Shown piece by piece: positions 19,942-20,358 of a stretch of 64,000 nucleotides of DNA (its first letter is position 1; every line of letters starts with the position of its first letter). Origin of the DNA: a virus; IMG/VR virus record IMGVR_UViG_3300045256_000094; one strand, written 5' to 3'. The notes under the pieces are model-generated. The model saw only the letters and a program-made list of their open reading frames with translations. It was not told where the DNA came from and did not search any database. The translations under genes were made by a program, and so were the position numbers.

Positions 19942-20058
19942 TGGTCGCCGGTGCAGTTCGCAACGCTGCTCCAACCCCCTAGCTTGGGGCCGTTCTATCG
20001 CCCCATGACAGACGGGGTAACTTTCCCGCTGGTGGAGCAAGCATTAAACTAACCGGCA
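19942..20058 (-). ncRNA. 117-nt tRNA-like RNA with an encoded 3' CCA. The acceptor is perfect (UGCCGGU/ACCGGCG). There is a T-like arm and two GC-rich internal hairpins.
   Basis: Hand-folded. Confidence 0.35.
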
Positions 20059-20060
20059 AG

Positions 20061-20132
20061 CCCGAGTGGAGGGAGTTGAACCCCCGCCTCCGGCCCATAA
20101 CGGCCGGTGCGCTAACGTTACGCCACACCCAG
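20061..20132 (-). ncRNA. tRNA-like gene with an expanded (6- or 8-nt) anticodon loop CGUUAUGG
   Basis: It has C1-G72, the D-arm GCGU-AACGUUA-GCGC and the T-arm GGGGG-UUCAACU-CCCUC. Confidence 0.4.
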
Positions 20133-20139
20133 GATAACG

Positions 20140-20210
20140 CCGGAGGGGAAGGATTCACACCTTCACTAGCCGTAGTAGGTGGCCGTGCTGACTGTTACAC
20201 TACCACTCCG
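20140..20210 (-). ncRNA. aberrant tRNA-like gene. The T-loop is non-canonical (UGUGAAU) and there is no foldable anticodon arm.
   Basis: The acceptor pairs at 6 of 7 positions. Confidence 0.3.
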
Positions 20211-20216
20211 GTTAAG

Positions 20217-20285
20217 CTCGGGAACCTGGACTTGAACCAGGACTTGCGACTAATGCGCCGCCGTGCTGACTTACACTACTCCCGA
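20217..20285 (-). ncRNA. aberrant tRNA-like gene. Acceptor, D-arm and T-arm are good. There is no 5-bp anticodon stem.
   Basis: The acceptor is UCGGGAG/UUCCCGA and the T-arm is CCUGG-UUCAAGU-CCAGG. Confidence 0.3.
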
Positions 20286-20287
20286 AT

Positions 20288-20358
20288 ATACCAGTACGGA
20301 GTCGAACCGTTCTTCCCCCTGGCCGGGGGCGTGCAGACCGTTACACTAAAATCTGGCA
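20288..20358 (-). ncRNA. aberrant tRNA-like gene. The anticodon position holds a 5-bp/5-nt hairpin CCCCC-GGCCA-GGGGG.
   Basis: Hand-folded. Confidence 0.3.

What the first reader, a model, noticed from the sequence alone, without database searches (positions are those of the whole stretch)
19942..20358. Run of five consecutive aberrant tRNA-like genes
All five keep a pairing acceptor stem and a T-arm. One is a 117-nt RNA with an encoded CCA. One has a 6- or 8-nt anticodon loop CGUUAUGG. Three have no 5-bp/7-nt anticodon hairpin, and two of those share the D-arm GUG-UAA(C)AGUCAG-CAC. Non-functional pseudogenes would not be expected to keep acceptor and T-arm pairing so well.
Basis: seen in the sequence. 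Interest (0 to 1): 0.55.

Follow-up and report, generated by a model that had tools for sequence, protein, structure and literature searches.

The report
Conserved tRNA mimics in phage array
A large phage's array of 50-plus tRNA genes holds five tRNA-shaped genes with wrong-sized anticodon loops; related phages keep four of them intact under selection, so these are working RNAs but almost certainly not ordinary translation adaptors.

Summary
On the - strand, between tRNA-Trp (20375-20446) and tRNA-Pro (19869-19940), lie five tRNA-like genes. A has a 5-nt anticodon loop and B a 6-nt loop. C has a broken anticodon stem. D has a 6-bp stem with a 6-nt loop (or 5 bp with 8 nt). E is 117 nt and encodes ACCA.

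I recovered the orthologous block from three related phage contigs. Neutral sites there are near saturation (codon position 3 is 38-56% identical). A, B, D and E are 75-89% identical, like the flanking canonical tRNAs (81-84%). B and D keep their cloverleaves through 6 and 5 compensatory pair changes, and E's terminal stem through 3. These four are therefore not pseudogenes.

Their anticodon loops vary in sequence and length while the flanking canonical tRNA loops barely change. B, C and D lack G18G19. B (3 of 4 genomes) and E (4 of 4) encode CCA, against 1 of 173 called tRNAs.

None matches Rfam Y RNA or tmRNA models or this lineage's Y-RNA signature. C occurs only in the window and may be a recent insertion or a decaying copy.

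Best reading: processed, non-decoding tRNA mimics. Their partner is unknown.

The parts
20288..20358 (-). Element A: tRNA-like, 5-bp stem with a 5-nt 'anticodon' loop (GGCCA), canonical D-arm (GG present) and T loop, weak or shifted acceptor stem, no N73-C-U trailer
   Evidence: Fold (z -1.85). ARAGORN finds it only at a relaxed threshold and Rfam does not report it. Orthologs exist in L012 and L013, 84-94% identical, where the arm is AGCCC/GGCCC-CCUCAAA-GGGCU with a 7-nt loop. Absent from L011.
20216..20285 (-). Element B: cloverleaf with a 5-bp stem and 6-nt loop GCAUUA; D loop lacks G18G19; trailer G73-C-UU
   Evidence: ARAGORN tRNA-???; fold z -4.5. Across 4 genomes 98.8% of cells are paired and 6 pairs change on both sides. 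Loops are GCAUUA, GGCAAA, GUUUUA and GUUUAUG. G73-CCA is encoded in L012, L013 and L011.
20141..20209 (-). Element C: degenerate tRNA-like (acceptor mismatch, A.C in the anticodon stem, no U33, T loop UGUGAAU, G18 replaced by A). It is part of a window-specific insertion of about 81 nt (about 20133-20213) between B and D
   Evidence: Rfam 28.2 bits, below the gathering score of 29; fold z -0.83 and the MFE is not a cloverleaf. Absent from L011, L012 and L013.
20060..20132 (-). Element D: tRNA-like with a 6-bp stem and 6-nt loop (or 5 bp and an 8-nt loop CGUUAUGG); D loop lacks G18G19; canonical T loop; trailer G73-C-UU
   Evidence: Rfam tRNA 47.7 bits with a loop insertion. Across 4 genomes 100% of cells are paired and 5 pairs change on both sides, 4 of them in the anticodon stem. 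The loop is RUUADG in all four. Model R2 scores the orthologs at 88-101 bits. L036 carries a D-like arm with the same loop.
19942..20058 (-). Element E: 117-nt tRNA-derived RNA with a 7-bp terminal stem, U8/G10/A14, a D stem GUUU/GAAC interrupted by a 42-nt insertion, a GCCCC/GGGGU hairpin with loop AAGCUAG, a GCAG/CUGC hairpin with a 9-nt loop, and A73-CCA directly abutting tRNA-Pro
   Evidence: Fold z -4.0. Orthologs of 98-121 nt occur in L011, L012 and L013 (102-148 bits). The terminal stem has 3 pairs changed on both sides. No Rfam family matches. The pattern is absent from the viral, metagenome and genome collections.
20360..20373 (-). Small conserved hairpin (GUUCUUGCAAGAAC) between tRNA-Trp and element A
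   Evidence: It reads GCUCUUGCAAGAGC in L012 and L013 and GCAAACGAAAGUUUGC in L011, so the stem is kept by compensatory changes. It is present even where A is absent.
20375..20446 (-). Canonical tRNA-Trp(CCA) flanking the block upstream, used as the conservation yardstick
   Evidence: ARAGORN and Rfam, 60.1 bits. Its anticodon loop CUCCAAA is invariant in all 4 genomes. Mean identity 81%.
19869..19940 (-). Canonical tRNA-Pro(UGG) flanking the block downstream. RNase P cleavage at its 5' end would leave E ending ...ACCA-U
   Evidence: ARAGORN and Rfam, 41.5 bits. Mean identity 84%. The junction ACCAU|CAGGG is invariant in 4 genomes.

Best explanation
The block is a conserved cassette of tRNA-derived small RNAs embedded in the giant tRNA array of a large phage (contig of at least 169 kb).

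Shown: A, B, D and E are under purifying selection for a tRNA-like fold but not for a canonical anticodon loop.

Inferred: they are transcribed with the neighbouring tRNAs. RNase P cuts them out at the 5' end. The 3' end of B and D is made by the same machinery that processes the array's CCA-less tRNAs, since they share the N73-C-U trailer. B (in the relatives) and E instead carry their own CCA. An encoded CCA is known to block RNase Z and to help RNase P recognise substrates that lack a normal elbow. The products are stable L-shaped RNAs that cannot decode normally: their loops are 5, 6/8, 7 without U33, or 10 nt, they have no fixed anticodon, and B and D lack G18G19.

I propose they act as tRNA mimics, in one of two ways. 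They could be decoys or competitors for host proteins that bind the tRNA body, such as tRNA-targeting defence nucleases or tRNA-modifying toxins. Or they could be scaffolds for a phage RNP.

C is a lineage-specific insertion, probably a recent or decaying copy.
For: 1. Reality and context. The block is identical in 3 assemblies. It lies inside a same-strand array of 53 tRNAs, with no promoter-like or terminator-like site inside it.

2. Selection. Mean identity across the 4 genomes (3 for A) is A 89%, B 75%, D 81% and E 80%, against Trp 81% and Pro 84%. Codon position 3 of the adjacent gene is 38-56% identical and the spacer after tRNA-Pro 46-58%.

3. Structure. D has 100% of cells paired and 5 pairs changed on both sides; no more than 1 of 500 shuffles reaches the observed values, apart from the count of further pair types. 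B has 98.8% paired and 6 such pairs. E's terminal stem has 3 such pairs.

4. Not decoding. Loop sequence and length change between orthologs in A, B and E. D's possible triplets differ (UAU, UAA, UAG). The phage barely uses ATA, TTA or CTA (0.7-1.9 per 1000 codons), and TAA is its main stop, 11 of 18.

5. Processing marks. 52 of 53 canonical tRNAs end N73-C-U, as do B and D. Encoded CCA occurs in 1 of 173 called tRNAs, and that one is B' of L011. It occurs in E in 4 of 4 genomes and in B in 3 of 4.

6. Precedent in the same genome. Y-like RNAs sit in the array and next to Ro60, and one tRNA-like scaffold has its anticodon arm replaced by a Y-like module.
Against: There is no expression, processing or binding data. 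The mimic or decoy function is pure inference and no partner protein was identified.

Only four genomes are available, so the covariation counts are small. The tool's own caveat is that related sequences can beat shuffles without any structure.

L011's B' has a normal 7-nt loop with U33 (anticodon UUA), and A in L012 and L013 has a 7-nt loop. Some members could therefore still decode.

D's loop is fairly conserved (RUUADG) and recurs in an unrelated phage, L036. That hints at a loop-specific function.

A decoy for anticodon nucleases would be expected to mimic a target loop, and these loops do not.

A has a poor acceptor stem, so RNase P processing of A is doubtful.
Confidence: 0.5

Rival explanations
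1. They are non-canonical decoders: suppressor, frameshifting (doublet or quadruplet reading) or rare-codon tRNAs that work on the ribosome despite their odd loops. D would be an 8-nt-loop tRNA reading NUA codons, and B or A would be stop-codon suppressors.
For: D passes the Rfam tRNA threshold in all 4 genomes at 43-48 bits. Read as an 8-nt loop, D keeps U33 and G37 around UAU, UAA or UAG. The same loop occurs in L036 between two tRNA-Leu genes. L011's B' is a 7-nt-loop tRNA with anticodon UUA, and A in L012 and L013 has CCUCAAA, which contains UCA. The window array has no tRNA-Leu. Natural 8-nt-loop decoders exist, such as yeast mitochondrial tRNA-Thr(UAG) and frameshift suppressors (own knowledge).
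Against: The candidate anticodons differ between close orthologs while the body stays the same, which is incompatible with a fixed codon and amino-acid assignment. The flanking canonical tRNA loops barely change. C32-G38 is invariant and extends the stem to 6 bp, leaving a 6-nt loop. The phage uses ATA, TTA and CTA at only 0.7-1.9 per 1000 codons, and TAA is its commonest stop. Long ORFs are intact under the standard code. B and D lack G18G19, and B orthologs lack the UUC T loop. A has C33 and E has A33 or C33.
Confidence: 0.15
2. They are Ro60-associated RNAs, a divergent kind of Y RNA or Ro60 substrate that works with the phage Ro60/TROVE protein encoded 16 kb away.
For: The window encodes a Ro60 homolog. 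Y-like RNAs occur both next to it and inside the tRNA array in this lineage. Known bacterial and phage Y RNAs mimic tRNA, Yrn1 has a 6-nt 'anticodon loop', and M. smegmatis YrlA is cut by RNase P and receives CCA (PMC4201824). E can fold as a long rod with AAUGCUUG and AACUG next to its terminal stem.
Against: No Rfam YrlA, YrlB or Y_RNA hit in the block, even at E up to 10. The lineage signature AAUGC-N5-16-UACAUC has 5 hits on the array strand, none in the block. E lacks UACAUC and the GNCGAA motif. The block is 16 kb from Ro60, whereas known YrlA genes lie within 4 kb. One substitution in L012 and L013 breaks E's rod pairing.
Confidence: 0.1
3. They are cis-acting processing or stability elements. 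As tRNA-shaped punctuation, they recruit RNase P and 3' processing enzymes, or protect the polycistronic array transcript, and the excised products have no function of their own.
For: They are packed tightly between genes, with spacers of 0-7 nt, and B and D share the N73-C-U trailer. The structure is conserved but the anticodon loops are not. A conserved extra hairpin follows tRNA-Trp.
Against: The neighbouring canonical tRNAs already supply RNase P and 3' processing sites every 70-80 nt, so four extra sites in a row add nothing obvious. No ORF lies inside the block that would need releasing. E's long invariant internal segments (UUAGUUUAAUGCUUG and GGGGUUGGAGCAG.GUUGCGAACUGCA) show sequence-specific constraint beyond a cleavage signal. 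The conserved encoded CCA points to a mature end that matters.
Confidence: 0.1
4. They are decaying tRNA pseudogenes produced by duplication and turnover in a rapidly rearranging array.
For: Array content does turn over. C is found only in the window, A is missing from L011, and a tRNA-Phe is found only in L011. An HNH endonuclease gene lies nearby. C folds poorly and has several defects. The D-arms of B and C are a common phage tRNA D-arm with G18G19 lost.
Against: A, B, D and E are as conserved as the real tRNAs while neutral sites are about 50% identical. Compensatory pair changes occur in B, D and E. CCA is specifically conserved in B and E. No canonical parent exists in any array.
Confidence: 0.05

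Closest known systems
Bacterial and phage Y RNAs with tRNA-like domains (YrlA RF02553, YrlB RF02565, D. radiodurans Yrn1; Chen et al. 2014, PMC4201824)
   Same: They are non-decoding small RNAs built from tRNA-like D, T and acceptor modules. Yrn1 has a 5-bp 'anticodon' stem with a 6-nt loop, like B and D. M. smegmatis YrlA is cleaved by RNase P and gets CCA. They are found in phages that encode Ro60, and this window encodes Ro60 and several Y-like RNAs.
   Different: A-E have no GNCGAAN0-1G motif and no GAAUGC...UACAUC signature. They get no Rfam hit. They lie 16 kb from Ro60 instead of within 4 kb. Their termini are in the acceptor stem, as in real tRNAs, not in a Ro-binding stem.
Phage T4 stable RNAs 'species 1' and 'species 2' (RNA C and RNA D) in the T4 tRNA gene cluster (own knowledge; no sequence comparison made here)
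   Same: They are small stable RNAs of unknown function, encoded among phage tRNA genes, co-transcribed with them and matured by the tRNA-processing machinery.
   Different: No homology was tested or seen. A blastn search of the phage collection found nothing similar to the block. The T4 RNAs are not described as cloverleaves with shortened anticodon loops.
Natural tRNAs with 8-nt anticodon loops (yeast mitochondrial tRNA-Thr(UAG); frameshift-suppressor tRNAs such as sufD; own knowledge)
   Same: If its C-G closing pair is open, D has an 8-nt loop containing U33, a UAN triplet and G37.
   Different: D's triplet differs between orthologs. C32-G38 is invariant and can pair, giving a 6-nt loop. 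D lacks G18G19. The phage has almost no demand for the codons it would read.
Phage tRNAs that evade or neutralise tRNA-targeting defences (van den Berg et al. 2023, PMC10264068; T5 tRNA against PARIS, PMC11464382; retron evasion, PMC11555353)
   Same: They are phage array-encoded tRNA-shaped RNAs whose anticodon loops depart from the host norm, in a setting of conflict over tRNA.
   Different: Those RNAs are still 7-nt-loop, chargeable decoders that replace cleaved host tRNAs. A-E have loops of the wrong size and no fixed anticodon.
Non-translational tRNA derivatives in bacteria (B. cereus pseudo-tRNA 'tRNA-Other'; Staphylococcus non-proteinogenic tRNA-Gly with G18G19 replaced; own knowledge)
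   Same: They are tRNA-derived RNAs kept by selection for jobs off the ribosome. The staphylococcal species have also lost G18G19, as have B, C and D.
   Different: Those RNAs keep normal 7-nt anticodon loops and are aminoacylated. Charging of A-E is unknown.

Membership tests
Canonical elongator tRNA (Rfam RF00005) | Score at or above the Rfam gathering threshold (29 bits), or an ARAGORN call with a 3-nt anticodon | tested here: not met
   Only D passes Rfam (47.7 bits, with a loop insertion). C scores 28.2. A, B and E are not reported. ARAGORN calls B and D as tRNA-??? with 2-nt anticodons and misses A, C and E at default settings.
Canonical elongator tRNA (Rfam RF00005) | 5-bp anticodon stem with a 7-nt loop, U33 and a purine at 37, and an anticodon conserved between orthologs | tested here: not met
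   The loops are 5 nt (A), 6 nt (B), 7 nt without U33 (C), 6 or 8 nt (D) and 7 nt with A33 (E). Loop length and sequence vary between orthologs.
Canonical elongator tRNA (Rfam RF00005) | 7-bp acceptor stem, D-arm and T-arm maintained by base pairing | tested here: met
   Met for B and D: 98.8% and 100% of cells paired, with compensatory changes. Met for E's acceptor stem. A's acceptor is weak, C has mismatches, and E's T-arm is 4 bp with a 9-nt loop.
Canonical elongator tRNA (Rfam RF00005) | Elbow nucleotides G18G19 and T-loop U54-U55-C56 | tested here: not met
   The D loops of B (UAAGUCAG), C (AACAGUCA) and D (AACGUUA) have no GG. B's orthologs have T loops UGAGACU or UGCGAGU. A keeps both features.
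Y RNA (YrlA/YrlB/Y_RNA) | Match to the Rfam covariance models | tested here: not met
   No YrlA, YrlB or Y_RNA hit in 19800-20600 at E up to 10. The same scan type does find Y-like RNAs near Ro60 and in L004's array.
Y RNA (YrlA/YrlB/Y_RNA) | Ro-binding motif near the 5' end (GNCGAAN0-1G; in this lineage GAAUGC...UACAUC) | tested here: not met
   The pattern AATGC-N5-16-TACATC has 5 hits on the array strand (0.07 expected), none in the block. E has AAUGCUUG only. The motif definition is from PMC4201824.
Y RNA (YrlA/YrlB/Y_RNA) | Encoded within about 4 kb of the Ro60 gene on the same strand | tested here: not met
   Same strand, but the block is about 16 kb from Ro60 (36615-38204). However, this lineage also places bona fide Y-like RNAs far from Ro60 inside the array.
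Y RNA (YrlA/YrlB/Y_RNA) | Physical binding to Ro60 | not testable with these tools
   This needs immunoprecipitation of the phage Ro60.
tmRNA | tRNA-like domain plus a tag reading frame, detected by ARAGORN -m or Rfam RF00023 | tested here: not met
   ARAGORN in tmRNA mode finds nothing in the region, and there is no Rfam tmRNA hit in the block.
8-nt-loop (quadruplet or reassigning) decoder tRNA | 8-nt anticodon loop with a defined, conserved anticodon | tested here: inconclusive
   D can be drawn with an 8-nt loop C-R-U-U-A-D-G-G, but C and G are invariant and can pair. The triplet or quadruplet differs among the 4 orthologs.
8-nt-loop (quadruplet or reassigning) decoder tRNA | Aminoacylation and decoding on the ribosome | not testable with these tools
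   Indirect evidence is against it: the codons that would be read are the rarest in the phage, and TAA is its main stop codon.
tRNA pseudogene | Evolves at the neutral rate, with non-compensatory stem changes | tested here: not met
   A, B, D and E are 75-89% identical against about 40-58% at neutral sites, and their stem changes are compensatory. For C this is inconclusive because it has no orthologs.

The most novel reading that the evidence does not exclude
The cassette encodes a previously unrecognised class of phage effector RNAs. These would be tRNA-shaped molecules that carry their own CCA, have lost the decoding loop and the canonical elbow, and are kept to bind, jam or mislead proteins that recognise the tRNA body. 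Candidate targets are host anticodon or acceptor-tail nucleases, tRNA-modifying toxins, and RNA quality-control machinery. They would work alongside the phage's own Ro60/Y-RNA system. E would be a new tRNA-derived RNA family of about 100-120 nt with two mutually exclusive conserved folds, which could make it a structural switch.
Probability: 0.2. Interest if true: 0.8.

Novelty: new variant of a known kind. Interest (0 to 1): 0.57.

Why it matters
Annotation pipelines routinely discard 'undetermined' or 'pseudo' tRNA calls in phage tRNA arrays. Here four such genes show the evolutionary marks of function: conservation equal to real tRNAs, compensatory pair changes and a specifically retained CCA. 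At the same time they have lost what a decoder needs.

If they are tRNA mimics, large phage tRNA arrays are not only codon-supply or tRNA-replacement devices. They would also produce non-coding effectors, in a genome that also carries Ro60, several Y-like RNAs and a vault-protein homolog. That gives a concrete, testable entry point into RNA-based phage counter-defence and into how Y-RNA-like molecules arise from tRNAs.

E is also a new RNA family with no Rfam counterpart.

Tried and rejected
1. Close relatives in public collections. Protein anchors and DNA patterns found nothing in IMG/VR or the JGI metagenome contigs. Relatives came only through the protein database and contig look-up. L007, about 80% identical, stops one gene short of the block.

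2. GenBank phages. blastn of 19000-23500 hit only generic tRNAs outside the block.

3. E as a known RNA. No Rfam family matches. The E pattern is absent from the viral, metagenome and genome collections. The E model finds only the 4 orthologs plus weak canonical tRNA matches.

4. A special family defined by the D-arm shared by B and C: rejected. The relaxed pattern hits ordinary phage tRNAs with GUAGUGUAAYGGUCAGCAC. The single hit in the genome collection is a chance match with no tRNA context.

5. A recent canonical parent for A-E: none found in any array.

6. tmRNA and Y RNA: rejected.

7. Choosing between E's rod fold and its tRNA-like fold: unresolved. The tRNA-like fold has 97.5% of cells paired over 20 pairs and the rod 89.6% over 43 pairs. 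Covariation occurs only in the terminal stem.

8. A protein partner encoded nearby. Pfam and PHROG scans of the array-embedded ORFs gave only an HNH endonuclease, HAD, DUFs and a weak 2H phosphoesterase. L011 has an AlaRS-like fragment beside the block, but no consistent G3-U70 occurs in any element.

9. Rare-codon supplier or ochre suppressor role for D: disfavoured by codon and stop usage.
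Full report
**Context.** The window carries a very large tRNA array on the - strand. ARAGORN finds 53 genes, 50 of them between 2121 and 23220, and Rfam finds 49 tRNA hits at or above the gathering score. Small ORFs, mostly orphans, are interspersed, including an HNH endonuclease. Downstream lie a Ro60/TROVE-vWA homolog, a Major Vault Protein homolog, an NAD-dependent ligase and an ADP-ribosylglycohydrolase. The source is a 169-kb metagenomic contig, and the same sequence was assembled identically from two other runs. The gene content and tRNA array point to a large phage.

**The observation.** Reading the - strand between tRNA-Trp (20375-20446) and tRNA-Pro (19869-19940) gives five tRNA-like units with spacers of 0-7 nt.
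- A (20288-20358) has a D-arm, a CCCCC/GGGGG stem closing a 5-nt loop, and a T-arm. Its acceptor is poor or out of register.
- B (20216-20285) is a clean cloverleaf with a 6-nt loop (fold z -4.5).
- C (20141-20209) has an acceptor mismatch, an A.C in the anticodon stem, no U33 and an odd T loop. It folds no better than shuffles (z -0.8).
- D (20060-20132) scores 47.7 bits as tRNA but has CCGGCC-GUUAUG-GGCCGG, which is a 6-nt loop, or 8 nt if the C-G pair opens.
- E (19942-20058) is 117 nt with a 7-bp terminal stem followed by ACCA (z -4.0).

ARAGORN calls only B and D, both with 2-nt 'anticodons'. Rfam passes only D, with C at 28.2 bits. Relaxed ARAGORN, intron and tmRNA modes do not rescue normal cloverleaves.

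**Finding orthologs.** DNA and protein scans of IMG/VR, the JGI metagenome contigs, GenBank phages and GTDB genomes found no close relatives. Searching the large protein collection with the small proteins flanking the block, then looking up their contigs, gave three syntenic relatives that span it: L012, L013 and L011. It also gave a distant relative, L004, which has the same array-plus-MVP layout but no recognisable orthologs of A-E.

The gene orders are:
- window: Lys*-Trp-hairpin-A-B-C-D-E-Pro
- L012 and L013: the same, without C
- L011: Lys*-Trp-hairpin-B'-D-Phe-E-Pro, without A and C

**Selection.** The four genomes are far apart. In the conserved part of the adjacent 75-aa gene, codon positions 1 and 2 are 87-100% identical but position 3 only 38-56%. 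The spacer after tRNA-Pro is 46-58% identical. Against that baseline, mean pairwise identities are:

| Element | Mean pairwise identity |
|---|---|
| A | 89% |
| B | 75% |
| D | 81% |
| E | 80% |
| tRNA-Trp (canonical flank) | 81% |
| tRNA-Pro (canonical flank) | 84% |

The aberrant elements are thus indistinguishable from the canonical flanks.

The changes that do occur preserve pairing. D's cloverleaf has 100% of 88 cells paired and 5 pairs changed on both sides. Four of those are in the 'anticodon' stem: CCGGCC/GGCCGG, GCAGUC/GACUGC and CCAACC/GGUUGG. B has 98.8% paired and 6 such pairs, spread over the acceptor, anticodon and T stems. No more than 1 of 500 column shuffles reaches the observed values (apart from the count of further pair types), and slid registers collapse to 22-58% paired. 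E's terminal stem has 3 pairs changed on both sides. With four sequences this is modest in number but consistent. Together with the conservation it rules out neutral decay for A, B, D and E.

**Not ordinary decoders.**
- The anticodon loop of tRNA-Trp (CUCCAAA) is invariant in the four genomes, and that of tRNA-Pro differs at one base in L012.
- A's loop is GGCCA (5 nt) in the window but CCUCAAA (7 nt, C33) in L012 and L013.
- B's loop is GCAUUA, GGCAAA, GUUUUA or GUUUAUG.
- E's loop is 7, 10, 10 and 7 nt, without U33.
- D's loop is RUUADG.
- B, C and D have no G18G19, and B's orthologs have T loops UGAGACU or UGCGAGU.
- If D is read as an 8-nt loop with U33 and G37, its triplet is UAU, UAA, UAU or UAG in the four genomes. 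That is not a stable identity.
- The codons D would read are the rarest in the phage's long ORFs (ATA 0.7, TTA 1.8 and CTA 1.9 per 1000). TAA is the commonest stop, 11 of 18, so an ochre suppressor would read through the phage's own genes. Long ORFs are intact under the standard code.

**Processing marks.** 52 of the 53 ARAGORN-called tRNAs in the window end N73-C-U and none encodes CCA. The relatives' arrays behave the same way. Of 173 called tRNAs in all loci, only one has a properly placed CCA, and that is L011's B'.
- B and D share the N73-C-U(U) trailer in the window.
- E carries A73-CCA in all four genomes, immediately followed by U and then the first base of tRNA-Pro.
- B carries G73-CCA in L012, L013 and L011.
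- In the window, that junction is exactly where C is inserted, and B reads G73-CUU there.

From established knowledge of tRNA maturation, a 3' CCA pairs with the P15 loop of bacterial RNase P RNA and is an anti-determinant for RNase Z. An encoded CCA on exactly the members with the most abnormal bodies is what one would expect if correct excision has to be secured without a normal elbow. This is inference. No promoter-like or terminator-like site lies within the block on the array strand, which is consistent with co-transcription.

**What E is.** E's invariant segments read as a tRNA with U8, G10 and A14, and a D stem GUUU/GAAC. Its D loop (AAUG...GAUA) is interrupted by an insertion of 42 nt, or 21 nt in L011. 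There follow a GCCCC/GGGGU hairpin, a GCAG/CUGC hairpin with a 9-nt loop, and the acceptor plus CCA. A covariance model of E finds only the four orthologs (102-148 bits). After them it finds canonical tRNAs at 17-25 bits, by skipping the insertion.

E can also fold into a more stable rod: -57 kcal/mol against -46 in the window copy, with a similar 7-11 kcal/mol margin in the orthologs. The tRNA-like model has 97.5% of cells paired over 20 pairs and the rod 89.6% over 43 pairs. The one informative internal substitution (C to A in L012 and L013) breaks a rod pair and lies in a loop of the tRNA-like model. The internal fold remains unresolved, and both pairings are largely conserved.

**Y RNA test.** Known bacterial and phage Y RNAs mimic tRNA, and this genome encodes Ro60, so I tested that idea directly.
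- Rfam gives no YrlA, YrlB or Y_RNA hit in the block at E up to 10. It does give weak YrlA/YrlB hits below the Ro60 gene and in L004's array.
- Those RNAs share a signature: stem, GAAUGC, helix, UACAUC. The pattern AATGC-N5-16-TACATC has five hits on the array strand (0.07 expected). Three are next to Ro60 and two are inside the tRNA array, at 12012-12033 and 17771-17792. None is in the block.
- E has AAUGCUUG but no UACAUC and no GNCGAA motif (criteria from PMC4201824).

A-E are therefore not Y RNAs by any feature I could test. The genome does show that tRNA-scaffolded non-coding RNAs are part of this phage's repertoire.

**The shared D-arm.** A relaxed scan of IMG/VR showed that GUAGUGUAA-YGG-UCAGCAC is a common D-arm of ordinary phage tRNAs. 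B (2-nt deletion), C (G to A) and an element in L001 (1-nt deletion) are versions that have lost G18 and/or G19. It is not a family signature. The same scan turned up L036, a 171-kb viral contig whose array contains a gene with the arm GCGCC-GUUAUG-GGCGU, the same 6-nt loop as D. The D model also scores the L001 element, which has a 16-nt loop and encodes CCA, at 58 bits, above all canonical tRNAs. tRNA-likes of the D type with non-7-nt loops therefore occur beyond this lineage, though I have only these two outside examples.

**Interpretation.** What is shown: A, B, D and E are real, selected, structured tRNA derivatives that lack the features needed for normal decoding. C is a lineage-specific insertion with several defects.

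What is inferred: they are excised with the tRNAs and act through their tRNA-like body. The most economical mechanism is mimicry, meaning competition for or capture of proteins that recognise the acceptor/T-arm body or the CCA end. This fits a setting where tRNA is a known battleground between phages and host defences (PMC10264068 and related papers).

No partner was identified, and I give this specific mechanism about even odds. The rivals are non-canonical decoding, Ro60 association, cis-acting processing elements and pseudogenes. Each is listed with its evidence and the test that would refute it.

**Novelty.** tRNA-like non-coding RNAs are a known kind. Examples are Y RNAs, the T4 stable RNAs and bacterial pseudo-tRNAs. 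A conserved cassette of short-loop or odd-loop tRNA mimics with encoded CCA inside a phage tRNA array does not match any described family I could find, and neither does the E family. I rate it a new variant of a known kind, of moderate interest.

Noticed in passing
window 35243-35530 (- strand), downstream of Ro60 (36615-38204): Three tandem Y-like RNAs with the pattern stem-GAAUGC-helix-UACAUC...ACUGGU-stem, at about 35471-35530, 35322-35391 and 35243-35318. Rfam gives only weak hits, YrlA 29.4 bits and YrlB 19.6 bits, both below the gathering scores.
   Followed up: partly
window 11960-12043 and 17735-17798 (- strand); L004 6611-6685, 6864-6931 and 576-596; L011 11137-11158; L012 154-175: Y-RNA-like genes with the same signature are embedded inside the tRNA arrays, far from Ro60. 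The signature has 5 hits on the array strand in the window against 0.07 expected. The folds have z-scores of -5.0 and -2.3. Known YrlA genes lie within 4 kb of Ro60.
   Followed up: partly
window about 35945-36072 (- strand): A tRNA-like RNA of about 128 nt with acceptor GGCGGUG/CGCCGCC, D-arm GUGUAAUAGCAGCAC and T-arm UCAGG-UGCGACU-CCUGA. A segment of about 75 nt containing a Y-like module (GAAUGU...GGAUUACAUCC) replaces the anticodon arm. It looks like a tRNA-Y RNA chimera with its termini in the acceptor stem.
   Followed up: partly
window 30590-33343 (-), 36615-38204 (-), 60765-62309 (-); L004 19581-22223: A Major Vault Protein homolog (MVP_shoulder 1e-23, Vault_3 2e-11) lies 3 kb from a TROVE+vWA protein, with an ADP-ribosylglycohydrolase also in the window. 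The MVP is conserved in the distant relative L004. Phage and bacterial MVPs have been reported (bioRxiv 10.1101/2023.11.10.566534 and 10.1101/872010). Having MVP, a TROVE protein and small RNAs in one phage recalls the composition of eukaryotic vaults.
   Followed up: partly
window, all tRNA genes from 2121 to 35462: None of the 53 called tRNAs encodes CCA, and 52 of 53 have the trailer N73-C-U. The same holds in the relatives. This looks like a lineage-wide 3'-processing signal.
   Followed up: yes
window 20451-20534; L011 3462-3544; L007 1850-1932; L012 9164-9236; L013 1859-1931: The 'tRNA-Lys(CUU)' just upstream of the block has a class-II body with a long variable arm (83-84 nt) in the window, L011 and L007. 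In L012 and L013 it has a 73-nt class-I body with a different acceptor. The anticodon loop CUCUUAA is identical in all. Its Rfam score is only 25-27 bits in the window and L011 (no score for L007, whose copy ends at the contig end).
   Followed up: partly
window 35723-35841, 15733-15841, 35154-35231, 34963-35057, 17640-17726, 21591-21672: More oversized or odd tRNA genes. One has a 47-nt D-loop insertion and the loop CUCAAAC (CAA). One is a 109-nt Rfam tRNA hit that ARAGORN misses. One has a 10-nt anticodon loop. One is a 95-nt 'Ser'. One is an 87-nt class-II-like 'Asn(GUU)'. One is an 82-nt 'Trp(CCA)' whose orthologs get weak tRNA-Sec hits.
   Followed up: no
window 2121-23220: The 53 called tRNAs include no Leu, Phe or Tyr. 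The only Ser calls are aberrant ones near Ro60. Several isoacceptors are present in 4-5 copies (Gly, Pro, Gln, Glu, Lys).
   Followed up: no
L036 7194-7267 (-) (IMGVR_UViG_3300045007_000064, 171 kb); L001 2245-2330 (+) (IMGVR_UViG_3300031707_000090): Two outside examples of D-type tRNA-likes. L036 has the same GUUAUG loop closed by C-G and sits between two 75-76-nt tRNA-Leu genes. L001 has a 16-nt loop and an encoded GCCA, and lies next to a weak PTH2-like ORF and a CUA-anticodon tRNA.
   Followed up: partly
L011 2184-3050 (+): A 288-aa protein with an AlaRS class-II core match (tRNA-synt_2c, 4e-24) is encoded in the array just upstream of the block in L011. No counterpart was seen at the corresponding position in the window.
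   Followed up: no
window 27508-28209 and 29331-30539; ThiF genes in L003, L004 and L012: Weak Prok-JAB and Prok-E2_D matches in the window, and ThiF (E1-like) genes at the syntenic place in the relatives, suggest a ubiquitin-like conjugation module between the array and the MVP gene.
   Followed up: no
window 20422-20438 (+): The Y-RNA signature pattern also matches the reverse complement of tRNA-Trp's D-arm (GAUGUAAUGGUAGCAUU). This is a reminder that the Y-RNA motif AAUGC...UACAUC and tRNA D-arm sequences are related strings.
   Followed up: no
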